A DNA stretch of 64,000 bases from Escherichia coli (lineage in GTDB: Bacteria; Pseudomonadota; Gammaproteobacteria; Enterobacterales; Enterobacteriaceae), in assembly GCF_003019035.1 (NCBI RefSeq), contig NZ_CP027447.1; one strand, written 5' to 3'. The position numbers were made by a program, and so were the translations under genes. This document shows positions 10,000 through 64,000 of this stretch, one piece after another. The notes under the pieces are model-generated. The model ran no database searches. It was given only the letters and a program-made list of their open reading frames with translations, and had not been told where the DNA came from. Numbering within the stretch: position 1 is the first letter of the stretch; the number at the start of each line of letters is the position of its first letter.

Positions 10000-10099
10000 G
10001 TCGTTACCCTTTTTCAGGCAATAGTTGGCCCTGACCGAAACGGCCAATTTTGTTTTTTCGTTATTTACCGGAGAATTAATCCGGTTGATTATTCAACGG

Positions 10100-24438: not shown

Positions 24439-24478
24439 CACGCTACCGCCCCTGGCTTTTTAGCTACCAATACACTGA
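24439..24478 (-). promoter_or_regulatory. JUMPStart/ops element in the wza (cps operon) leader
   Basis: Plus strand cacgctaccgcc at 24439-24450 is the reverse complement of ops GGCGGTAGCGTG; flanks nearly identical to the copy at 360-399. Confidence 0.75.
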
Positions 24479-40556: not shown

Positions 40557-40736
40557 AAGAAATCCTTTCTTAGAGAATTATTGAGGTCCGGTATCATACC
40601 GATTGCAATAATGAAATAAGAGCAAACGAAGAAACTTTCAGAATTAGGCCCGGCGGCGCAGAAAATTTTGCTATTCGCCTCGCAAGAACGGAGAGCCGTC
40701 GATTGACACTAAGGGCGGAGTGACATAATTTCAGGA

Positions 40737-40886
40737 GTGAGGGTTAGGGAGAGGTTTCCCCCTCCCCCTGGTGTTCTTAGTAAGCCTGGAAGCTAATCAC
40801 TAAGAGTATCACCAGTATGATGACGTGCTTCATCATAACCCTTTCCTTATTAAAAGCCCTCTTCTCCGGGAGAGGGTTTCCCGTTT
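40737..40886 (+). ncRNA. sibA: Sib antisense sRNA (type I antitoxin), copy 1; ends approximate
   Basis: -35 ttgaca (40703-40708), 17-bp spacer, -10 taattt (40726-40731); intrinsic terminator gccctcttctccgggagagggtttcccgtttc ending ~40886; fully antisense to ibs ORF. Confidence 0.6.
40777..40836 (-). CDS. ibsA: Type I toxin IbsA-like, 19 aa (MMKHVIILVILLVISFQAY)
   Basis: Reverse-complement translation; SD aaggaaag upstream; differs from remembered K-12 IbsA by one residue (P17Q). Confidence 0.8.
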   Translation of the reverse strand: MMKHVIILVILLVISFQAY

Positions 40887-41071
40887 CAGCGTCCCGCTGA
40901 AATCGTCGGCTTACCTCCTTTCGCCCTGAATGCAGTCTATCGCTAACGCGTGAACAAAATAGTTTCCTCTGTGATTATTCCGTAACGACTCGCAAAGAAT
41001 ATTTGCTGGCAGGATCGCAGACTACAAAGCCTGCGGATTGACAATCTTATCGTGAAGGCATAATTTCAGGA

Positions 41072-41214
41072 GTGAGGGTAGAGCGGGGTTTCCCCCGCCC
41101 TGGTAGTCTTAGTAAGCGGGGAAGCTTATGACTAAGAGCACCACGATGATGAGTATCTTCATCATGACCCTTTCCTTATTTATGGCCCCTTCCTCGGGAG
41201 GGGCTTTCCCGTTT
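41072..41214 (+). ncRNA. sibB: Sib antisense sRNA, copy 2; ends approximate
   Basis: -35 ttgaca 41038-41043, -10 taattt 41061-41066; terminator hairpin ggcccctcctcgggaggggc + ttcccgtttc (41184-41214). Confidence 0.6.
41109..41165 (-). CDS. ibsB: Type I toxin IbsB-like, 18 aa (MMKILIIVVLLVISFPAY)
   Basis: Reverse-complement translation with SD; hydrophobic Ibs-family peptide. Confidence 0.8.
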   Translation of the reverse strand: MMKILIIVVLLVISFPAY

Positions 41215-41399
41215 CAGCGTCCCGCTGAAATCGTCGGCTTACCTCCTTCTGTCCTGTATGCAGTCTATCGCTGACTTGCGGATAAAATAGTTTCCAATGT
41301 GATTATTGCGTAACGTCTCGCAAAGAATATTTGCTGGCAGGATCGCAGACTGCAAAGCCTGCAGATTGACAATATTATCGTGAAGGCATACTTTCAGGA

Positions 41400-41543
41400 G
41401 TGAGGGTAGAGCGGGGTTTCCCCCGCCCTGGTAGTCTTAGTAAGCCGGGAAGCTTATGACTAAGAGCACCACGATGATGATCCACTTCATCATGACCCTT
41501 TCCTTATTTAAGGCCCCTTCCTCGGGAGGGGCTTTCCCGTTTC
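41400..41543 (+). ncRNA. Sib antisense sRNA, copy 3; ends approximate
   Basis: -35 ttgaca 41366-41371, -10 tacttt 41389-41394; terminator hairpin 41512-41543. Confidence 0.55.
41437..41493 (-). CDS. Type I toxin Ibs-family, third copy, 18 aa (MMKWIIIVVLLVISFPAY)
   Basis: Reverse-complement translation; same frame/SD as copy 2 but with Trp at position 4. Confidence 0.7.
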   Translation of the reverse strand: MMKWIIIVVLLVISFPAY

Positions 41544-46141: not shown

Positions 46142-49100
46142 GTGAAGTTTTTTGCCCTCTTCATTTACCGCCCGGTGGCGACGATTTTACTGTCGGTCGC
46201 CATTACCCTGTGCGGCATACTGGGTTTCCGTATGCTGCCAGTCGCCCCGCTGCCACAGGTCGATTTTCCGGTGATCATGGTCAGCGCCTCGCTGCCCGGT
46301 GCGTCACCAGAAACAATGGCGTCTTCCGTTGCCACGCCGCTGGAGCGCTCACTTGGGCGCATTGCCGGAGTCAGCGAAATGACCTCCAGCAGTTCGCTCG
46401 GCAGCACGCGCATTATTTTGCAGTTTGATTTTGACCGGGATATCAACGGCGCAGCGCGCGATGTGCAGGCGGCGATCAACGCCGCGCAAAGTCTGCTACC
46501 CAGCGGGATGCCCAGCCGTCCGACCTATCGCAAAGCGAACCCGTCGGATGCGCCAATTATGATCCTGACGCTAACCTCCGATACTTATTCGCAAGGTGAA
46601 CTGTACGATTTCGCCTCAACACAGCTGGCTCCGACGATTTCGCAAATCGACGGTGTCGGTGATGTCGATGTTGGCGGCAGCTCGCTGCCCGCCGTACGCG
46701 TCGGGCTGAATCCGCAGGCGCTGTTTAATCAGGGCGTCTCGCTGGACGACGTACGCACTGCCATCAGCAATGCCAACGTGCGTAAACCGCAGGGCGCGCT
46801 GGAAGATGGCACTCACCGCTGGCAGATCCAGACCAACGATGAACTGAAAACAGCCGCTGAATATCAGCCGTTGATTATTCATTACAACAACGGCGGCGCG
46901 GTTCGTCTGGGCGATGTGGCGACGGTGACCGACTCAGTACAGGATGTGCGCAACGCCGGGATGACCAACGCCAAACCGGCTATTTTGCTGATGATCCGCA
47001 AGCTGCCGGAAGCCAATATTATCCAGACGGTTGACAGCATCCGCGCCCGTCTGCCGGAATTACAATCCACCATCCCGGCAGCAATTGATCTGCAAATTGC
47101 CCAGGATCGCTCCCCTACTATCCGCGCGTCGCTGGAAGAGGTTGAGCAGACGCTGATTATCTCGGTGGCGCTGGTGATTCTGGTGGTGTTTTTATTCCTG
47201 CGCTCGGGTCGCGCCACTATTATTCCCGCCGTTGCGGTGCCGGTTTCGCTGATTGGTACGTTTGCGGCGATGTACCTGTGCGGATTCAGTCTCAATAACC
47301 TTTCGTTAATGGCACTCACCATCGCTACTGGTTTCGTGGTGGATGACGCCATCGTGGTGCTGGAAAACATTGCCCGTCACCTGGAAGCGGGGATGAAACC
47401 ACTACAGGCCGCACTGCAAGGTACTCGCGAAGTCGGTTTTACGGTGCTGTCGATGAGTCTGTCACTGGTGGCGGTGTTCCTGCCGCTGCTGTTGATGGGC
47501 GGATTGCCGGGTCGCCTGTTACGCGAGTTTGCCGTGACGCTTTCTGTCGCCATTGGTATTTCGTTGCTGGTTTCCCTGACGTTAACGCCGATGATGTGCG
47601 GCTGGATGCTGAAAGCCAGCAAGCCGCGCGAGCAAAAGCGACTGCGTGGTTTTGGTCGCATGTTGGTAGCCCTGCAACAAGGCTATGGCAAGTCGCTGAA
47701 ATGGGTGCTCAATCATACCCGTCTGGTGGGCGTGGTGCTGCTTGGCACCATTGCGCTGAATATCTGGCTGTATATCTCGATCCCGAAAACCTTCTTCCCG
47801 GAGCAGGACACCGGCGTGTTGATGGGCGGGATACAGGCGGATCAGAGTATTTCGTTTCAGGCGATGCGCAGTAAGTTGCAGGATTTTATGAAAATTATCC
47901 GTGACGATCCGGCGGTGGATAATGTCACCGGCTTTACCGGCGGTTCGCGGGTGAACAGTGGGATGATGTTTATCACCCTCAAGCCACGCGACGAACGCAG
48001 CGAAACGGCGCAGCAAATTATCGACCGTCTGCGCGTAAAACTGGCGAAAGAACCGGGGGCGAATCTGTTCCTGATGGCGGTACAGGATATTCGCGTTGGC
48101 GGACGTCAGGCTAACGCCAGCTACCAGTACACATTATTGTCCGACGATCTGGCGGCACTGCGCGAATGGGAGCCGAAAATCCGCAAAAAACTGGCGACGT
48201 TGCCGGAACTGGCGGACGTGAACTCCGATCAGCAGGATAACGGCGCGGAAATGAATCTGGTTTACGACCGCGACACCATGGCACGGCTGGGAATCGACGT
48301 GCAGGCCGCCAACAGCCTGTTAAATAACGCCTTCGGTCAGCGGCAAATCTCGACCATTTACCAGCCGATGAACCAGTATAAAGTGGTGATGGAAGTGGAT
48401 CCGCGCTATACCCAGGACATCAGTGCGCTGGAAAAAATGTTCGTTATCAATAACGAAGGAAAAGCGATCCCGCTGTCGTATTTCGCTAAATGGCAACCGG
48501 CGAATGCCCCACTATCGGTGAATCATCAGGGATTATCGGCGGCCTCGACCATCTCGTTCAACCTGCCGACCGGGAAATCGCTCTCGGACGCCAGTGCGGC
48601 GATCGATCGCGCAATGACCCAGCTTGGTGTGCCTTCGACGGTGCGCGGTAGTTTTGCCGGCACGGCGCAGGTGTTCCAGGAGACGATGAACTCGCAGGTG
48701 ATCCTGATTATCGCCGCCATCGCCACGGTGTATATCGTGCTGGGTATCCTTTACGAGAGTTACGTACATCCGCTGACGATTCTCTCCACCCTGCCCTCGG
48801 CGGGCGTTGGAGCGCTGTTGGCGCTGGAGCTGTTCAATGCCCCGTTCAGCCTAATCGCCCTGATAGGGATCATGCTATTAATCGGCATCGTGAAGAAAAA
48901 CGCCATTATGATGGTCGATTTTGCGCTCGAAGCCCAACGGCACGGTAACCTGACGCCGCAGGAAGCTATTTTCCAGGCCTGTCTGCTGCGTTTTCGCCCG
49001 ATTATGATGACTACCCTGGCGGCGCTGTTTGGCGCGCTGCCGCTGGTGTTGTCGGGCGGTGACGGCTCGGAGCTGCGGCAACCCCTGGGGATCACCATTG

Positions 49101-49219
49101 TCGGCGGTCTGGTAATGAGCCAGCTTCTGACGCTGTATACCACGCCGGTGGTGTATCTCTTTTTCGACCGTCTGCGGCTGCGTTTTTCGCGTAAACCTAA
49201 ACAAACGGTAACCGAGTAA
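46142..49219 (+). CDS. mdtC: Multidrug efflux RND transporter subunit MdtC (GTG start)
   Basis: 1025-aa [29 protein letters not shown]…. Confidence 0.95.
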
Positions 49220-53305: not shown

Positions 53306-53519
53306 ATCAAAACAACTCTTAGTTATTGATAATTAAGATTAACCTCCGCCATTAAAATAGTGGGCACTGACGAGCACTCGTTGTGCTTTCTTTGTTTACC
53401 ATCCCATACTTATCTTCCTGAACATGTTCATATGCCAAAATATCTTCTAATACTTTCGTGACGCTATCCGGTTTATGAAATACACTGATGTAAGATTTTT
53501 ACTTACAGGCGGGTGTAAA

Positions 53520-53771
53520 ATGGCCAGAACGATGACGGTTGATCTCGGCGATGAGTTGCGTGAATTTATCGAGTCCTTAATTGAATCCGGCGACTATCGC
53601 ACCCAAAGCGAAGTGATCCGTGAGTCGCTGCGCTTACTTCGAGAAAAGCAAGCAGAGTCTCGCCTGCAAGCGTTACGTGACATGCTCGCTGAAGGGTTGA
53701 GTAGTGGTGAAGCTCAGCCGTGGGAAAAGGACGCGTTTTTACGGAAGGTGAAAGCAGGGATAAGGAAATAA
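53520..53771 (+). CDS. parD: Type II antitoxin ParD (ribbon-helix-helix)
   Basis: 83-aa product MARTMTVDLGDELREFIESLIESGDYRTQSEVIRESLRLLREK… characteristic ParD N-terminus; stop overlaps downstream toxin start region. Confidence 0.8.
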   Translation: MARTMTVDLGDELREFIESLIESGDYRTQSEVIRESLRLLREKQAESRLQALRDMLAEGLSSGEAQPWEKDAFLRKVKAGIRK

Positions 53772-53772
53772 T

Positions 53773-54069
53773 GTGCGTACTATAAAACTCATGCCAAAAG
53801 CCAATGAGGATTTAGAAGGCATCTGGTATTACAGCTATCACCATTTCGGCGAACCACAAGCCGACAGATATGTGGAACATCTTTCAGACGTTCTCCAGAT
53901 TCTGAGTAACAATAATATAGGTACGCCCAGACCTGAATTAGGCGAAGGTATTTTTGTTCTTCCTTTTGAACGCCACGTAATTTATTTCCTGCAATCACCA
54001 GAGGAAATTATCGTCATTCGTATCCTTAACCAAAACCAGTACGCCTCCAGACATTTACACTGGAGCTAA
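53773..54069 (+). CDS. parE: Type II toxin ParE (RelE/ParE superfamily); GTG start
   Basis: 98-aa ORF …ANEDLEGIWYYSYHHFGEPQADRYVEHL…HVIYFLQSPEEIIVIRILNQNQ…; starts 2 nt after parD stop. Confidence 0.8.
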   Translation: MRTIKLMPKANEDLEGIWYYSYHHFGEPQADRYVEHLSDVLQILSNNNIGTPRPELGEGIFVLPFERHVIYFLQSPEEIIVIRILNQNQYASRHLHWS

Positions 54070-55533: not shown

Positions 55534-55861
55534 TTCATTTCGATTATTTTTCCCGGATGGAAAATTCTTAGAAACCGATCACATACAGCTGCATTTATTA
55601 AGGTTATCATCCGTTTCGCTGAAAAACATAACCCATAAAATGCTAGCTGTACCAGGAACCACCTCCTTAGCCTGTGTAATCTCCCTTACACGGGCTTATT
55701 TTTTATACATAAGCCGTATCCTGGTAACCGTCTTCCATTGACCACATCGATAGAATCTCCCCTCATAGCACGATGCCTTTCACTTATTGGCATCGTGCTC
55801 GCACAGGTTCCGGTTACGCACAGCCAGAACGCGCATGTTTGACGCTTACCAAAAAATATTC

Positions 55862-56593: not shown

Positions 56594-57493
56594 ATGGCAG
56601 AATTTCCCGCCAGCTTACTGATTCTTAATGGCAAAAGTACTGACAATCTACCCCTGCGCGAAGCAATTATGCTGTTGCGTGAGGAAGGAATGACGATCCA
56701 TGTGCGGGTCACCTGGGAGAAAGGCGATGCCGCACGATATGTAGAGGAGGCCCGGAAGTTGGGCGTCGCAACGGTGATTGCCGGTGGTGGCGATGGCACC
56801 ATTAATGAAGTTTCTACGGCGTTGATTCAGTGTGAGGGGGATGACATACCCGCGCTGGGAATTTTGCCATTAGGAACCGCCAATGATTTTGCCACCAGTG
56901 TAGGGATTCCTGAGGCACTGGATAAGGCGCTGAAACTGGCAATTGCCGGTAACGCCATTGCGATAGATATAGCGCAGGTCAACAAACAAACCTGTTTTAT
57001 TAATATGGCGACAGGCGGATTTGGGACGCGTATTACCACAGAAACGCCGGAAAAATTAAAAGCCGCGCTGGGTGGCGTCTCTTACATCATTCATGGCTTA
57101 ATGCGCATGGATACTCTGCAACCGGACCGTTGTGAAATCCGCGGTGAAAACTTTCACTGGCAAGGTGACGCCCTGGTCATTGGTATTGGTAACGGGCGTC
57201 AGGCTGGTGGCGGTCAGCAATTGTGCCCGAACGCGTTAATTAACGATGGCTTGCTGCAACTGCGCATTTTTACCGGCGATGAAATTCTTCCGGCTCTCGT
57301 ATCAACCTTAAAATCTGACGAAGATAACCCGAATATTATCGAAGGCGCTTCGTCGTGGTTTGATATACAAGCCCCACACGAAATCACTTTTAATCTTGAT
57401 GGCGAACCGTTGAGTGGGCAAAACTTCCATATTGAAATACTTCCGGCGGCGTTGCGTTGTCGATTACCACCAGATTGTCCATTATTGCGTTAA
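56594..57493 (+). CDS. yegS: Lipid kinase YegS (DAGK-like catalytic domain)
   Basis: 299-aa [21 protein letters not shown]…[13 protein letters not shown]. Confidence 0.93.
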
Positions 57494-57531
57494 TCAAACT
57501 ATTCTCTGTTGAACCAGGGAGAATCCGTAAT

Positions 57532-57565
57532 GCCGGATGCGGTGTAAACACCTTATCCGGCATAC
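57532..57565. repeat. REP element between convergent yegS and gatR
   Basis: gccggatgcggtgtaaacaccttatccggcatac. Confidence 0.8.
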
Positions 57566-57574
57566 AGAACAATA

Positions 57575-58354
57575 CTACACCGTAATTAATTTTACCCGTG
57601 TCTTCTGCAATGCCAGTTTATCCACCTCAGACACAGCATCATCGGTAATAATAATGTCAATTTTTTCGATTGGCAGTACCTGATTAAAACCGCGACGATT
57701 AAATTTCGATGAATCGAGAACGGCAATCACTTTATTTGCGGCTGTGACCATCGCCCCGCTAATCGAATAGCCTTCATTAAAGGTCGTAATACCATTAACC
57801 GCATCAATACCATCAGCACCGACAAACATTAAATCGGCATTAATATCCTGCAATGAACGCTCAGCAATGGAGCCATGCATCGAGCGCGTTTTATGGCGGA
57901 CCGTGCCACCGCAGACGACCAGAGTAATGTCTTTATTTTCGGAAAGGGCAAATGCTGCCGGGAGACTGTTGGTAATCACCGTGATATTTTTGGCGGTCAT
58001 TAATCCTTCGGCGATAAGCATTGTCGTACTTCCGCTGTCGAGAATAACGGTCATCCCTTCGTGGATCATTTTGACTGCCGCCTGCGCTATTCTGTTTTTT
58101 GGCGCGCTGGCGAGCTGAAATCGCTCTTTAAACCCGACTTCCTGGGTCTCGGTTTCACTATTACCGGACATTATTTTCGCCGCACCGCCATGAAAGCGCG
58201 TAACCACGCCTTTTTGTTCGAGAAAGCGCAAATCGGCACGGATTGTCGCTTCCGAGGCAGCAAATACTCCCGCCAGATCCTGAACAAGCACGGTTCCCTG
58301 TTCATTCACTAATTGGATGATCTTATTCCTTCGCTCGAATGAATTCATCGTCAT
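57575..58354 (-). CDS. gatR: DeoR-family repressor of the galactitol operon, GatR (uninterrupted); start may be the Met at 58348
   Basis: 259-aa continuous ORF with N-terminal HTH (…NKIIQLVNEQGTVLVQDLAGVFAASEATIRADL…) and DeoR C-terminal sugar-binding domain. Confidence 0.9.
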   Translation of the reverse strand: MTMNSFERRNKIIQLVNEQGTVLVQDLAGVFAASEATIRADLRFLEQKGVVTRFHGGAAKIMSGNSETETQEVGFKERFQLASAPKNRIAQAAVKMIHEGMTVILDSGSTTMLIAEGLMTAKNITVITNSLPAAFALSENKDITLVVCGGTVRHKTRSMHGSIAERSLQDINADLMFVGADGIDAVNGITTFNEGYSISGAMVTAANKVIAVLDSSKFNRRGFNQVLPIEKIDIIITDDAVSEVDKLALQKTRVKLITV

Positions 58355-58453
58355 TTACCCATATTCAATTGTGGCTAGTGTAAACGAAGGGGGACCATTG
58401 GTGAATGATCTGTTTTGCACAATACCGGGCCAGCATCACGCTGGCCCGCGGTT

Positions 58454-59494
58454 TCAGGGAATGAGCAACACTTTGCCCGGCATAGCATTACGAGCGATGT
58501 CACGCACCGCCTGGGCGAAGCTTTCAAAGCTTCCACGGTGAGCGATTAATGGCTCCAGGCTTAACTTACGTTCTGTCAGCAACCGGCTCGCCGTTTCCCA
58601 CTCCTGCCCCGGCCAAGGGCTGGAGTAGTTCATCCAACTGCCAATCACCGTCAGCTCTTTACGCAATATTTTGCCAAACGTTGCCGATGTTAAATGCAGA
58701 TCCTGATGCAACGTGCCCACCAGCGCCAGTTGGGCATGAGGACCGGCAATCTCTACCGCCAGTTCGACGGTTTGCGGGACGCCAGCCGTCTCGAGGATAA
58801 GCTGATTAAAGCGCAGCTCGCGTAAAACGCCCTGTATTTGCGGCGCGCTCATTTCACGGCTGTTAAATGTTTGCATCGCACCGAAAGATTTTGCCAGTGC
58901 CAGTTTTTCTGAGCTAATGTCGATAGCCGTCACACTCTTTGCTCCCAGCGCGACAGCGCACTGAATTGCCAGCAGGCCAATGGTTCCGGCACCAATAATA
59001 ATAACGTTTTTATTCTCACATCCTTGCGCTAAATGGAACGCATGCAGGCCAACGGTAATCGGTTCAATAAAAGCGCCATCCTCAATAGGCATATCCGCAG
59101 GTAGTGCAAAGACATTGTTTCGCTTAACGACAATATATTCGGCAAATCCACCATCACGCCGTGAGCCAATAAAATCATATTTTGCGCACTGGGAATAAAA
59201 CCCTTTCAGACACTCTGGACAAGTAAAACAGGGTAATAACGGCACACAGGCAACCGCATCGCCGGGATGTAAATCATCAATACCGGATCCCACCGCATCA
59301 ATATAGCCGCTAAATTCATGGCCTAACGTTATTGGATAATAATGTGCACCATTTTTAAATATCCTGGGTAAATCGGAACCACATAAGCCCGAGCTGGCAA
59401 TTTTTACCCGCACCTCATCCTGATGTTTAATTTCAGGAATGACGCTTTCTGCTACGCGCACGATACCATCAGTATCATTCACCACTGATTTCAT
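58454..59494 (-). CDS. gatD: Galactitol-1-phosphate 5-dehydrogenase (Zn-dependent MDR family)
   Basis: 346-aa ORF with Zn-ADH motifs (GHEFSG, CxxCxxC). Confidence 0.95.
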   Translation of the reverse strand: MKSVVNDTDGIVRVAESVIPEIKHQDEVRVKIASSGLCGSDLPRIFKNGAHYYPITLGHEFSGYIDAVGSGIDDLHPGDAVACVPLLPCFTCPECLKGFYSQCAKYDFIGSRRDGGFAEYIVVKRNNVFALPADMPIEDGAFIEPITVGLHAFHLAQGCENKNVIIIGAGTIGLLAIQCAVALGAKSVTAIDISSEKLALAKSFGAMQTFNSREMSAPQIQGVLRELRFNQLILETAGVPQTVELAVEIAGPHAQLALVGTLHQDLHLTSATFGKILRKELTVIGSWMNYSSPWPGQEWETASRLLTERKLSLEPLIAHRGSFESFAQAVRDIARNAMPGKVLLIP

Positions 59495-59540
59495 AAAAAC
59501 TCCTGATTGTTAAGGGGATAACCTCCCCCTCAGGTAAAAA

Positions 59541-60896
59541 TTATTCTGCGAGAACGGCTTTCTCTTGTTTAATAAAACCACGCGCTCTACGCCAGGTCAT
59601 GAAAATACCGGTCAGATAAATTGCGCCGATAATAATGAAACCGGGAATATTTTGCGGGGAGAAAACCTGAATCAGTAACCAGGTAATGGGAGAACCGCCC
59701 TGATCCATTGAAGCCACCATACCCCCGGCTTTTAACGCGCCCGCATTAGCCGCCAGTTGGGTGTGCAAACCAATAGTTTGCGTCGCGATCCACAGGGTGA
59801 TGCTCATAATGATGACACCCGAGATTAAGGTGCGGAACAGATTTCCACGATGCACCGCGACCGCCATCGCCACAAAGAAGCCGATGGTGGCAAGGTCGCC
59901 AAACGGCAGCACCTGATTACCCGGCACACAAACAGCAATTAAAATGGTGAGCGGGATAAAAATCAGGCTTGCCGATACCACCGCCGTATGCCCCAGCAGT
60001 AATGCGGGATCCAGGCCAATCAGGAACTCCTGACCGCCGAACTTCGCCTGTAAACGACTACGGGCCTGCTTAGCGATGGGCGTTAAACCATCCATGATGG
60101 GTTTAATCACCCGTGGCATCAGCAGCATAACCGCCGCCGTTTTTACCGCCAGCTGCAATACACCTTTGACATCGTAACCCGCGAGGATGCCGATAATCAG
60201 CCCCATCACAAAACCCACGGTGACAGGCTCGCCAAACGGACCAAATTTGCGCTGAATATCGTCGGCACTAAATTTAATTCGGTTAACGCCTGGGATTTTC
60301 TCGATGATAGCATCCACCAGCACCGCAATTGGCCCCATATACGCCGACGTACCGTGCGGGATGGCAATGCCTTCCAGCTCAAAGAAATTTCGGGTATCGC
60401 GGGCAAACCAGTCGCCGAGCTTATAAACAAACGCCGCGTGAATTACCACACCCGCCATCCCTATCATCCATGAACCGGTTGCCAGATGCAGCAACGCGCC
60501 GGTGAAGGTCATATGCCAGATATTCCAGATATCAACATTTACCACCCGCGTCATACGGGTCAGTAACATCGCCACGTTAACCAGAATCGCAATCGGAATC
60601 GCCACCAGCGCAATTTGCGACGCCCAGGTCATGGGTGAAGAGCCCGGCCAGCCGACATCGACCACATGCAGATTCAGGTCGAAATTTTCCGCCATCGCTT
60701 TCGCCGCCGGACCAATGGAATCCAGCATTAAGCCAATCACAAGGCCAATGCCAACAAAGCCAATCCCGATATGCAGACCCGCTTTAAAGCAATCGCCTGC
60801 CTTCATGCCTAATATTTTAGAAAAAATAATGATGACAATCGGCAGCATCACCGTAGGGCCGAGGTCGAGAATATAACGCATGACTTCTGAAAACAT
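59541..60896 (-). CDS. gatC: PTS galactitol-specific EIIC
   Basis: 451-aa polytopic membrane ORF. Confidence 0.95.
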   Translation of the reverse strand: MFSEVMRYILDLGPTVMLPIVIIIFSKILGMKAGDCFKAGLHIGIGFVGIGLVIGLMLDSIGPAAKAMAENFDLNLHVVDVGWPGSSPMTWASQIALVAIPIAILVNVAMLLTRMTRVVNVDIWNIWHMTFTGALLHLATGSWMIGMAGVVIHAAFVYKLGDWFARDTRNFFELEGIAIPHGTSAYMGPIAVLVDAIIEKIPGVNRIKFSADDIQRKFGPFGEPVTVGFVMGLIIGILAGYDVKGVLQLAVKTAAVMLLMPRVIKPIMDGLTPIAKQARSRLQAKFGGQEFLIGLDPALLLGHTAVVSASLIFIPLTILIAVCVPGNQVLPFGDLATIGFFVAMAVAVHRGNLFRTLISGVIIMSITLWIATQTIGLHTQLAANAGALKAGGMVASMDQGGSPITWLLIQVFSPQNIPGFIIIGAIYLTGIFMTWRRARGFIKQEKAVLAE

Positions 60897-60899
60897 AGG

Positions 60900-61184
60900 T
60901 CACCCCTGTAAGATAGTCAGAATTTTATTTTGTAATGCTTCGATACCGACACCAGAAACAAAAGGCATGCCGTGAACTAACGGAATATCGCCAAAACTAC
61001 GATCCACCCTGGCCGTGGTGCATATCAAATGCACGCCATCCATATAGGTTTCTATTTCATTAACCCGACACTGGATTAATTCAACAGGAATATTATGACT
61101 CTGACACAACTCTTTAATTTCTTCCGCCGCCATCGTGGAGGTCGCAACCGCGCCTCCGCAAGCGACAATAATCTTGCGTTTCAT
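60900..61184 (-). CDS. gatB: PTS galactitol-specific EIIB
   Basis: 94-aa [26 protein letters not shown]… (active Cys). Confidence 0.95.
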
Positions 61185-61214: not shown

Positions 61215-61667
61215 TTATTCGTCTGAATCTAAAACATACTTTGTGAAGTATTCCTTTAACTGAGTTTCAGGAAGAGTAATTAGTGTCTCGACGATATCGG
61301 GCTGTTGTAACTTGCCAAATAAACAGCGTAAAAGTTTCAATTGCTGCTGCGGATTTTCCACAATCAACGCAATAACCAACGATACCGCCACGTCGTTATC
61401 ATCATCCGCTTGCTGAAAATGAACTTTATTTGTTGGCCTTAACAGATAAATGGCTGACGACTTAGCATGAATCGCCTCACAATGCGGTATTGCAATGGCG
61501 TGCTGCTCAAGCATTATCCCGGTAGGGAATTCTGCTTCTCTGGCAATTAATGCCTGTGGCCAGGTATCATGAACCACACCTTTCGCGAGCATCTCATTAC
61601 CGATATGGGCTAAAACTTCGCTACGATCGACAAAAGAAATTCCGCTACGAACAAACAGGTTAGTCAT
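61215..61667 (-). CDS. gatA: PTS galactitol-specific EIIA
   Basis: 150-aa ORF with EIIA His region (…AIPHCEAIH…). Confidence 0.95.
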   Translation of the reverse strand: MTNLFVRSGISFVDRSEVLAHIGNEMLAKGVVHDTWPQALIAREAEFPTGIMLEQHAIAIPHCEAIHAKSSAIYLLRPTNKVHFQQADDDNDVAVSLVIALIVENPQQQLKLLRCLFGKLQQPDIVETLITLPETQLKEYFTKYVLDSDE

Positions 61668-61676
61668 ATACCGTCC

Positions 61677-63876
<2,200 letters not shown>

Positions 63877-63936
63877 TCAAATGTCGAGATAACGATCACA
63901 AAAACGACAATGTGAAAATTAATCAGAATTACAGGC

Positions 63937-63966
63937 AAAAAAAACGGCCTCCCGTTAGGGAAGCCG
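63937..63966 (-). terminator. Rho-independent terminator for a minus-strand gene lying beyond the window end (fbaB in K-12 order)
   Basis: On the minus strand a hairpin (cggcttccc…gggaggccg, one G·U pair) is followed by T8. Confidence 0.5.
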
Positions 63967-64000
63967 TAGCAAAGTGCGCGTGTTTTTATGCCGGATGCAA

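What the first reader, a model, noticed from the sequence alone, without database searches (positions are those of the whole stretch)
57575..58354. gatR reading frame is intact
A continuous 259-aa DeoR-family ORF is present. From memory, K-12 gatR is split by an IS element, making the gat operon constitutive there. Here the operon is probably repressible by GatR.
Basis: partly seen in the sequence, partly recalled or inferred. Interest (0 to 1): 0.3.

Follow-up and report, generated by a model that had tools for sequence, protein, structure and literature searches.

The report
Intact wild-type gatR repressor gene
This is the ordinary, uninterrupted wild-type copy of gatR, the repressor of the E. 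coli galactitol operon; nearly all natural isolates carry this form, and the insertion-split copy is specific to the K-12 and B laboratory lineages.

Summary
Window 57575..58354 on the minus strand is one uninterrupted ORF with a DeoR-type DNA-binding domain and a DeoR C-terminal sensor domain. It lies directly downstream of an intact gatYZABCD operon. Orthologues in about 30 other species all begin MNSFERRNK, so the real start is probably the second ATG (58348, 257 aa), not the first (259 aa).

The protein is identical to GatR of E. coli HS. That allele was shown experimentally to restore regulated gat expression in MG1655. It is also identical to K-12 GatR once the insertion is removed in silico.

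K-12 carries a 1258-bp IS3 with a 3-bp target duplication at window 58050-58052 (codon 101). B strains carry an independent IS1 at 58115-58123. Neither is present here.

Of 5108 complete E. coli genomes that have the gene, 383 are broken in it. Of those, 380 carry the K-12 or the B junction. The intact state is therefore the species norm.

The gatY promoter lies inside the window and keeps the conserved core blocks, so GatR repression is very likely but was not measured. This is already known biology and of low interest. Side observations: the Escherichia gat promoters lack the CTTTCR motif arrays found in other genera, and the two gat promoters share the 13-mer AAAACARATCATT.

The parts
57575..58348 (-). 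gatR coding sequence, 257 aa from the conserved start MNSFERRNK. The longest ORF extends to an upstream in-frame ATG at 58354, giving 259 aa.
58175..58333 (-). DeoR-type helix-turn-helix DNA-binding domain (residues 8-60 in 259-aa numbering)
   Evidence: Pfam PF08220, E 1.3e-16
57641..58102 (-). DeoR C-terminal sensor (effector-binding) domain (residues 85-238)
   Evidence: Pfam PF00455, E 2.5e-51. The only solved relative found by sequence is the E. coli DeoR C-terminal domain, 7L6L.
58050..58052 (.). Site (GTC, codon 101) where K-12 MG1655 carries the 1258-bp IS3. It is unoccupied here.
   Evidence: The K-12 junction is present in 345 genomes.
58115..58123 (.). Site (9-bp target) where B strains (BL21-AI, BLR(DE3)) carry an independent IS1. 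It is unoccupied here.
   Evidence: The B junction is present in 35 genomes.
58426..58448 (-). G+C-rich stem-loop just after the gatD stop codon, conserved across genera, separating gatD from gatR
   Evidence: Minimum free energy -20.5 kcal/mol, z-score -2.6. The consensus structure has 8 pairs, 4 of them with compensatory changes across 15 species.
58377..58405 (-). Candidate gatR promoter (inferred): -35 TTCACC at 58405-58400, a 17-nt spacer, -10 TACACT at 58382-58377
   Evidence: Both hexamers and their spacing are conserved in the cross-genus comparison of the gatD-gatR spacer. The site matches only 8 of 12 consensus positions, so the consensus scan did not report it.
58404..58416 (-). AAAACAGATCATT, a candidate GatR operator element overlapping the candidate -35 of the gatR promoter (inferred)
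   Evidence: One of only two matches to AAAACARATCATT (up to 1 mismatch) in the 64-kb window. It is conserved in Escherichia and Pluralibacter.
58454..59494 (-). gatD, galactitol-1-phosphate 5-dehydrogenase, full length (346 aa)
59541..60896 (-). gatC, galactitol PTS transporter subunit IIC, full length (451 aa)
60900..61184 (-). gatB, galactitol PTS transporter subunit IIB (94 aa)
61215..61667 (-). gatA, galactitol PTS transporter subunit IIA, intact (150 aa). It is interrupted by IS1 in the close relative SCU-172.
61677..62939 (-). gatZ, tagatose-bisphosphate aldolase subunit (420 aa)
62968..63822 (-). gatY, tagatose-bisphosphate aldolase subunit (284 aa from the annotated start)
63853..63880 (-). 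Promoter-like site of gatY: -35 TTGAAA, 16-nt spacer, -10 TATTTT
   Evidence: The block is conserved against K-12, HS and other genera.
63882..63900 (-). CRP-like site TGTGATCGTTATCTCGACA upstream of the gatY -35 (assigned by resemblance to the CRP consensus, from my own knowledge)
   Evidence: The block is conserved in the cross-genus alignment.
63865..63877 (-). AAAACAAATCATT, the second copy of the candidate operator element, spanning the -35/spacer of the gatY promoter (inferred)
   Evidence: It overlaps the GAAAACAAA direct repeat at 63870-63878, whose other copy lies at 63838-63846.
63833..63846 (-). GAAAACAAACGACA just downstream of the -10. It aligns with the conserved AAACAAACGAAAG block of other genera and is a candidate operator near the transcription start (inferred).

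Best explanation
This is the functional wild-type gatR gene of a commensal-type E. coli. The window is nearly identical to strain SCU-301.

GatR is a DeoR-family repressor. Its N-terminal helix-turn-helix domain binds operator DNA that overlaps the promoter of gatYZABCD, and probably its own promoter in the gatD-gatR spacer. Its C-terminal DeoR sensor domain binds an inducer made when galactitol is taken up. By family analogy the inducer is a phosphorylated intermediate such as galactitol-1-phosphate; this is not shown. Inducer binding releases the DNA so that the operon is transcribed, with CRP-cAMP assistance.

Shown here:
- The reading frame and the domain architecture.
- The position at the end of the gat operon.
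- Sequence identity to an experimentally validated allele.
- Absence of the K-12 and B-strain insertions.
- Intact structural genes and an intact promoter core.

Inferred:
- The operator positions.
- The gatR promoter.
- The identity of the inducer.
- That repression actually operates in this strain.
For: ORF and domains.

Synteny: gatY-Z-A-B-C-D-R lies between fbaB and yegS in the window, and the same order is conserved in about 40 Enterobacteriaceae species.

Protein identity: the protein is identical to E. coli HS GatR and to K-12 GatR with IS3 removed. The 14 nucleotide differences are all synonymous.

Function of that allele: HS gatR restored regulated gat expression in MG1655, and de novo IS insertions in it gave constitutive mutants (PMC5850726). 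Silencing gatR changes fitness in the clinical strains LF82 and CFT073.

Laboratory insertions: the K-12 IS3 and BL21 IS1 insertions were mapped and are absent here.

Population: 4725 of 5108 genomes are continuous across the central part of gatR, and 380 of the 383 broken ones carry the K-12 or B junction.

Promoter: the gatY promoter core is conserved against K-12 and HS.
Against: No expression data exist for this strain.

The 151-nt gatY promoter haplotype of the window is rare. It is at least 99% identical in only 29 genomes and 92% identical to K-12. Three of the differences fall between the CRP-like site and the -10, so altered repression cannot be excluded.

The E. coli operator has not been defined. 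The CTTTCR motif arrays that mark orthologous promoters in other genera are almost absent in Escherichia.

The consensus promoter scan found no promoter for gatR itself.

No NCBIfam equivalog model reaches its cut-off, so the name rests on synteny and identity, not on a curated family model.
Confidence: 0.92

Rival explanations
1. The frame is intact, but the operon is nevertheless constitutive or poorly repressed in this strain. The cause would be that its rare gatY promoter/operator haplotype no longer binds GatR well, or that gatR is too weakly expressed.
For: The promoter haplotype is at least 99% identical in only 29 of 4919 genomes with a match, and 90-95% identical in most. There are 3 substitutions between the CRP-like site and the -10 relative to K-12 and HS, including G/A in the -35 and first repeat copy. 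No consensus-grade promoter was found for gatR.
Against: The blocks conserved across Escherichia and across genera are all retained. Several of the positions that differ from K-12 also differ among the four E. coli strains aligned. The shared 13-mer is present in both promoters. GatR itself is under strong purifying selection, with 14 synonymous and 0 non-synonymous differences, which implies it is in use.
Confidence: 0.06
2. The ORF is a different DeoR-family paralogue (AgaR-like or SrlR-like) that happens to lie next to the gat genes and does not regulate them.
For: The best NCBIfam matches are AgaR (232.9 bits) and SrlR (226.3 bits). RefSeq gives only the generic name 'DeoR/GlpR family DNA-binding transcription regulator'.
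Against: Both scores are below the curated cut-offs of 260 and 350. The gene sits at the end of the gat operon in about 40 species. It is identical to the HS allele that was shown to regulate gat.
Confidence: 0.01
3. The uninterrupted ORF is an assembly artefact, and the real strain carries an IS or a frameshift here.
For: The window differs from the SCU-301 record by three single-base indels elsewhere (two in mdtC, one in the gatC-gatD spacer), so assembly errors do exist in this lineage.
Against: The gatR region is 100% identical in independent assemblies: SCU-172, SCU-301, MCJCHV-1 and FDAARGOS_497. It is continuous in 4725 genomes.
Confidence: 0.01

Closest known systems
GatR of E. coli HS (WP_001295426.1), and the gatR of wild isolate EC3132 described by Nobelmann & Lengeler 1996 (J Bacteriol 178:6790; recalled from memory and cited in PMC9997739; the paper itself could not be read)
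   Same: The amino-acid sequence is identical to HS GatR, with the same accession in SCU-301 and HS. The position downstream of gatD is the same. The HS allele restored regulation of the gat operon in MG1655 (PMC5850726).
   Different: There are 14 synonymous nucleotide differences from HS. The gatY promoter haplotype differs, and a roughly 78-nt repeat-containing segment of the fbaB-gatY spacer present in K-12 and HS is missing here.
gatR::IS3 pseudogene of E. coli K-12 MG1655 (IS3E)
   Same: It is the same gene, and the encoded residues are identical once the IS is removed.
   Different: K-12 has a 1258-bp IS3 plus a GTC duplication at codon 101, which separates the DNA-binding domain from the sensor domain. 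The window has none. The K-12 junction occurs in 345 of 5426 complete genomes. One passage of PMC5850726 calls the element IS1, but the record and the 2026 preprint say IS3/IS3E.
gatR::IS1 of E. coli B strains (BL21-AI, BLR(DE3))
   Same: It is the same gene, inactivated independently in a second laboratory lineage.
   Different: The element is IS1 with a 9-bp duplication at window 58115-58123, present in 35 genomes. It is absent here.
AgaR, the E. coli N-acetylgalactosamine operon repressor (DeoR family)
   Same: It is the best-scoring curated family model (E 3.1e-69), with the same two-domain architecture. T-rich TTTC-type operator repeats are recalled for AgaR (from memory), and CTTTCR arrays are seen in the gat promoters of other genera.
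   Different: The score of 232.9 is below the AgaR cut-off of 260, and the genomic context is gat, not aga. This gene is not an AgaR.
GatR of Salmonella Typhimurium (Nolle et al. 2017, J Bacteriol 199:e00595-16; not readable here, cited in PMC7972205)
   Same: It is a repressor of gat promoters whose helix-turn-helix deletion abolishes repression (PMC7972205).
   Different: No Salmonella locus was returned among the 54 relatives found, so it is more distant. It was not compared directly.

Membership tests
DeoR family of transcriptional regulators | N-terminal DeoR-type helix-turn-helix domain | tested here: met
   PF08220 at residues 8-60, 60.5 bits against a cut-off of 21
DeoR family of transcriptional regulators | C-terminal DeoRC sensor/oligomerisation domain | tested here: met
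   PF00455 at residues 85-238, 174.2 bits against a cut-off of 31.8. There is also a match to the DeoR C-terminal domain structure 7L6L, E 1.9e-11.
GatR (galactitol operon repressor) | Encoded at the 3' end of gatYZABCD, in the same orientation | tested here: met
   Window gene order. The same order is seen in about 40 Enterobacteriaceae species.
GatR (galactitol operon repressor) | Sequence identity to a GatR with demonstrated regulatory function | tested here: met
   100% identical to E. coli HS GatR, which restored regulation in MG1655 (PMC5850726)
GatR (galactitol operon repressor) | Represses gatYZABCD transcription and is relieved by galactitol | not testable with these tools
   This needs expression measurements in this strain. 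Only the presence of the promoter and of candidate operators could be checked.
GatR (galactitol operon repressor) | Uninterrupted coding sequence (no IS, no frameshift) | tested here: met
   A single ORF, a single-piece alignment to thousands of genomes, and unoccupied K-12 and B insertion sites
AgaR (NCBIfam NF040755 equivalog) | Score at or above the curated cut-off of 260 bits | tested here: not met
   232.9 bits
SrlR (NCBIfam NF007753 equivalog) | Score at or above the curated cut-off of 350 bits | tested here: not met
   226.3 bits

The most novel reading that the evidence does not exclude
The Escherichia clade may have re-specified its GatR-operator pair. In genera whose GatR is about 72-75% identical (recognition helix SEVTIR), CTTTCR motifs are enriched 24-fold in the gatY promoter and 12-fold in the gatR promoter. 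In Escherichia these arrays are essentially gone. Pluralibacter and Citrobacter amalonaticus share the Escherichia recognition helix (SEATIR) but still keep 2-3 copies in the gatY promoter. The two E. coli gat promoters instead share AAAACARATCATT, which would then be the undefined E. coli GatR operator. In addition, the gatR 5' third plus the gatD-gatR spacer is unusually invariant species-wide (at least 99% identical in 5079 of 5104 genomes), while the gatY promoter is hypervariable. This could reflect an unrecognised constraint or a recent sweep.
Probability: 0.25. Interest if true: 0.3.

Novelty: already known. Interest (0 to 1): 0.06.

Why it matters
It matters little beyond correct annotation. 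It does show that K-12 and B strains are atypical for galactitol regulation. About 93% of complete E. coli genomes that have the gene, and about 99.9% of those outside the two laboratory junction types, keep gatR free of large insertions or deletions. Results on constitutive gat expression, and on its fitness cost in gut-colonisation experiments with MG1655, should therefore not be extrapolated to natural isolates such as this one. The cross-genus promoter comparison gives concrete candidate operator sequences for a repressor whose E. coli binding site I could not find described.

Tried and rejected
- Literature: I tried to read Nobelmann & Lengeler 1996 (PMID 8955298, PMC178577) and Nolle et al. 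2017 (DOI, PMC5287402). None is held, so statements about them rest on citing papers or on memory.
- Promoter scan: the consensus scan found no sigma-70 site in the gatD-gatR spacer. The gatR promoter I propose matches 8 of 12 positions and rests on cross-genus conservation only.
- CTTTCR as the E. coli operator: I tested this motif, which is strongly enriched in other genera. The window has none in either gat promoter, so I rejected it for Escherichia.
- GAAAACAAA direct repeat: on its own it is not significant. It has 3 matches in the window against 1.09 expected, and 7 of 100 shuffles reach 3.
- mdtC frameshift: I followed up the 'frameshifted mdtC' annotation of SCU-301. The window's mdtC is an intact 1025-aa ORF, and the record differs by a -1/+1 indel pair. 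The window carries no such frameshift.
- Curated family names: NCBIfam has no GatR equivalog, and AgaR and SrlR fall below their cut-offs, so no curated family name applies.
- Rfam: no RNA family was found in or next to gatR.
- Not run: structure prediction and the large protein searches, because sequence identity to a validated allele already answers the question.

Full report
**Observation.** The ORF list shows one uninterrupted ORF at 57575..58354 on the minus strand, 259 aa from the first ATG. The sequence was also read directly. Pfam finds an N-terminal HTH_DeoR domain (residues 8-60, E 1.3e-16) and a DeoRC sensor domain (residues 85-238, E 2.5e-51). NCBIfam gives only sub-threshold matches to the paralogous equivalogs: AgaR 232.9 bits against a cut-off of 260, and SrlR 226.3 against 350. 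This explains the generic RefSeq name. The gene is on the minus strand. The likely start is the second ATG at 58348 (257 aa), as annotated in RefSeq, because GatR orthologues from about 30 other species all begin MNSFERRNK with no upstream in-frame ATG.

**Identity and context.** The last 24 kb of the window match E. coli SCU-301, a rectal-swab isolate from a healthy student, over their whole length. The only differences are four single-base changes, none of them in gatR. The ORF lies between yegS and gatD, at the end of gatY-gatZ-gatA-gatB-gatC-gatD, and all six of those genes are full length. A scan of one genome per species returned 54 loci. The order gatYZABCD-gatR recurs in about 40 Enterobacteriaceae species, with GatR 62-98% identical. 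The ORF is therefore gatR by synteny.

**Comparison with K-12 and B strains.** In MG1655 the gene is annotated as two pseudogene fragments flanking an IS3 transposase. Alignment places the 1258-bp element, with a 3-bp GTC duplication, at window 58050-58052. That is codon 101, between the DNA-binding and sensor domains. BL21-AI carries an independent IS1 with a 9-bp duplication at window 58115-58123. Neither insertion is present in the window. With IS3 removed in silico, K-12 GatR is identical in amino-acid sequence to the window protein, and all 14 nucleotide differences are synonymous.

**Functional evidence.** E. coli HS carries the same protein, WP_001295426.1 (identity verified). Sousa et al. 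2017 replaced the MG1655 pseudogene with the HS allele and obtained a regulated gat operon. In mice, that strain then gave rise to constitutive mutants through new IS insertions in gatR (PMC5850726). Other papers attribute the higher gat expression of MG1655 to the gatR disruption (PMC3045373). They name the element IS3E and report fitness effects of silencing gatR in strains LF82 and CFT073 (bioRxiv 10.64898/2026.01.05.697630). They also describe the gat locus as an IS hotspot in K-12 stocks (PMC9997739). Repression in this particular strain is inferred, not measured.

**How common the intact state is.** I searched three overlapping 500-nt tiles across gatR against 5426 complete E. coli genomes. 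At this tile length, even an IS1-sized insert splits a match.

| Tile (window coordinates) | Genomes with a match | Continuous |
|---|---|---|
| 3' tile (57475-57974) | 5109 | 5108 |
| Central tile (57775-58274) | 5108 | 4725 |
| 5' tile (58075-58574) | 5103 | 5103 |

Junction-specific queries show that 345 genomes carry the K-12 IS3::gatR junction and 35 carry the B-strain IS1::gatR junction. Together these are 380 of the 383 genomes broken in the central tile. Outside those two junction types, about 99.9% of genomes with the gene have it free of large insertions or deletions. About 6% of genomes lack the locus altogether. This test does not detect small frameshifts or nonsense mutations.

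**Regulatory DNA at gatY.** The whole gatY upstream region lies in the window (63823-64000). It contains the following features:
- The fbaB terminator at 63944-63967.
- A promoter-like site with TTGAAA at 63880-63875, a 16-nt spacer and TATTTT at 63858-63853.
- A CRP-like TGTGA-N6-TCTCG site at 63882-63900, assigned by resemblance to the consensus.
- Short repeats: GAAAACAAA twice, and TGTCGTTT/AAACGACA inverted.

The core, from the CRP-like site to the ATG, differs from K-12 and HS at three positions. The distal part differs more, and a roughly 78-nt segment of the fbaB-gatY spacer is absent.

**Regulatory DNA across genera.** Across 23 species the architecture is conserved: upstream repeats, a CRP site, the -10, and an AAACAAACGAAAG block before the ribosome-binding site. 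In the genera with about 72-75% GatR identity, the hexamer CTTTCR (either strand) occurs at these densities:

| Region | CTTTCR per kb |
|---|---|
| gatY promoters | 34.9 |
| gatD-gatR spacers | 17.0 |
| Rest of the loci | 1.45 |

This pattern fits repressor-binding sites and autoregulation of gatR. Escherichia has almost none of these motifs. Pluralibacter and Citrobacter amalonaticus share the Escherichia recognition-helix variant, SEATIR instead of SEVTIR, but still keep 2-3 copies in the gatY promoter. In the window, AAAACARATCATT occurs only at 58404-58416 and 63865-63877, both in gat orientation and both overlapping a -35 region. The expected count is 0.25. The pattern was derived from these same two sites, so this is a lead and not a test.

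**The gatD-gatR spacer.** A stem-loop conserved across genera follows the gatD stop codon (58426-58448; -20.5 kcal/mol; compensatory changes in 4 of 8 pairs). A conserved pair of hexamers, TTCACC then 17 nt then TACACT (58405-58377), is a plausible promoter for gatR.

**Mechanism.**
- Shown: an intact two-domain DeoR-family protein identical to a validated repressor allele, an intact target operon, and a promoter with a conserved core.
- Inferred from the family: oligomeric GatR binds sites overlapping the -35 and start region of PgatY, and probably PgatR, and blocks RNA polymerase. A galactitol-derived effector, most likely a sugar phosphate such as galactitol-1-phosphate, binds the DeoRC domain and releases the DNA. 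The effector assignment is by analogy with DeoR, GlpR, LacR and UlaR, from my own knowledge. CRP-cAMP is required for full expression.
- Main residual doubt: this strain's rare promoter haplotype (at least 99% identical in only 29 genomes) may alter repression.

**Verdict.** The finding is correct but ordinary. It describes the wild-type state of a known gene, and the K-12 peculiarity is well documented. Novelty is 'already known' and interest is low. The only mildly new material is the side observation on operator divergence and on contrasting diversity. The gatR 5' third, the spacer and the gatD 3' end are at least 99% identical in 5079 of 5104 genomes, whereas the gatY promoter is 90-95% identical in most.

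Noticed in passing
window 58000-58750 compared with 63815-63965: Nucleotide diversity contrasts sharply between two regions. The gatR 5' third, the gatD-gatR spacer and the gatD 3' end show 3 differences in 750 nt from K-12 and HS, and are at least 99% identical in 5079 of 5104 genomes. The gatY promoter region is only 90-95% identical in 3862 genomes, and flanking coding DNA differs by about 3%.
   Followed up: partly
L012-L059 gatY promoters and gatD-gatR spacers; window 63823-63960 and 58349-58453: CTTTCR motif arrays are enriched 24-fold (gatY promoters) and 12-fold (gatD-gatR spacers) in non-Escherichia genera but are nearly absent in Escherichia. Pluralibacter and C. amalonaticus share the Escherichia recognition-helix variant (SEATIR instead of SEVTIR) but keep 2-3 copies in the gatY promoter.
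   Followed up: partly
window 58426-58448 (-): A G+C-rich stem-loop right after the gatD stop codon is conserved across genera, with compensatory changes and no T-run. It could be an mRNA 3'-end stabiliser or a partial terminator insulating gatR.
   Followed up: partly
window 48976, 49017, 49087 (mdtC) and 59514 (gatC-gatD spacer): These are the only differences between the window and the SCU-301 record over the last 24 kb. The record has a -1/+1 indel pair that makes RefSeq call mdtC 'frameshifted', whereas the window's mdtC (46142-49219) is an intact 1025-aa ORF. There is also a G-run length difference at 59514.
   Followed up: yes
window 53475-54069 (+): A ParD antitoxin / ParE-RelE toxin gene pair lies between yegP and yegQ. 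It is absent from K-12 and HS at this position. Conversely, the ogrK / P2-remnant genes that K-12 has between yegQ and yegR are absent here.
   Followed up: no
window 40703-41508 (+) and 55616-55701 (+): There are three tandem Sib antitoxin RNAs, paired with three ibs toxin genes in the SCU-301 annotation, and the CyaR sRNA between yegQ and yegR. Elsewhere in the window there are two JUMPstart elements (360-398 and 24439-24477) and an algC RNA motif (10004-10053).
   Followed up: no
L002 11817-13046 (E. coli SCU-172): A close relative that is 100% identical across gatR has IS1 inserted in gatA. This is another example of the gat locus as an IS target in a natural isolate. The window's gatA is intact.
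   Followed up: partly
window 63961-63990 compared with L006 and L005: The fbaB-gatY spacer is about 78 nt shorter than in K-12 and HS. The missing segment looks like a REP-type palindromic unit. A REP-like hairpin also sits between the convergent yegS and gatR stop codons (57494-57574).
   Followed up: no
L056, L027, L007, L031: Some public records look mislabelled or contaminated. A 583-bp 'Bacillus sanguinis' contig encodes 91%-identical GatR. A 'Chryseobacterium sp. 18061' contig carries a Citrobacter-like gat operon. A 'Citrobacter sp.' MAG contig carries 100% E. coli GatR. Leclercia adecarboxylata NCTC13032 shows fragmented matches to the gat genes, suggesting frameshifts or assembly errors.
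   Followed up: no
L034, L048, L055 (Atlantibacter); L053, L054 (Leminorella, Budvicia); L036, L050: The gat locus has variant architectures. Atlantibacter has gatABC-gatR with no gatY, gatZ or gatD match. Leminorella and Budvicia have gatY downstream of gatR. Two GatR homologues (68% identical) have no gat genes upstream.
   Followed up: no
PMC5850726, section 8: One passage says MG1655 carries an IS1 insertion in gatR. The genome record and a 2026 preprint show that it is IS3 (IS3E). IS1 is the element found in B strains.
   Followed up: yes
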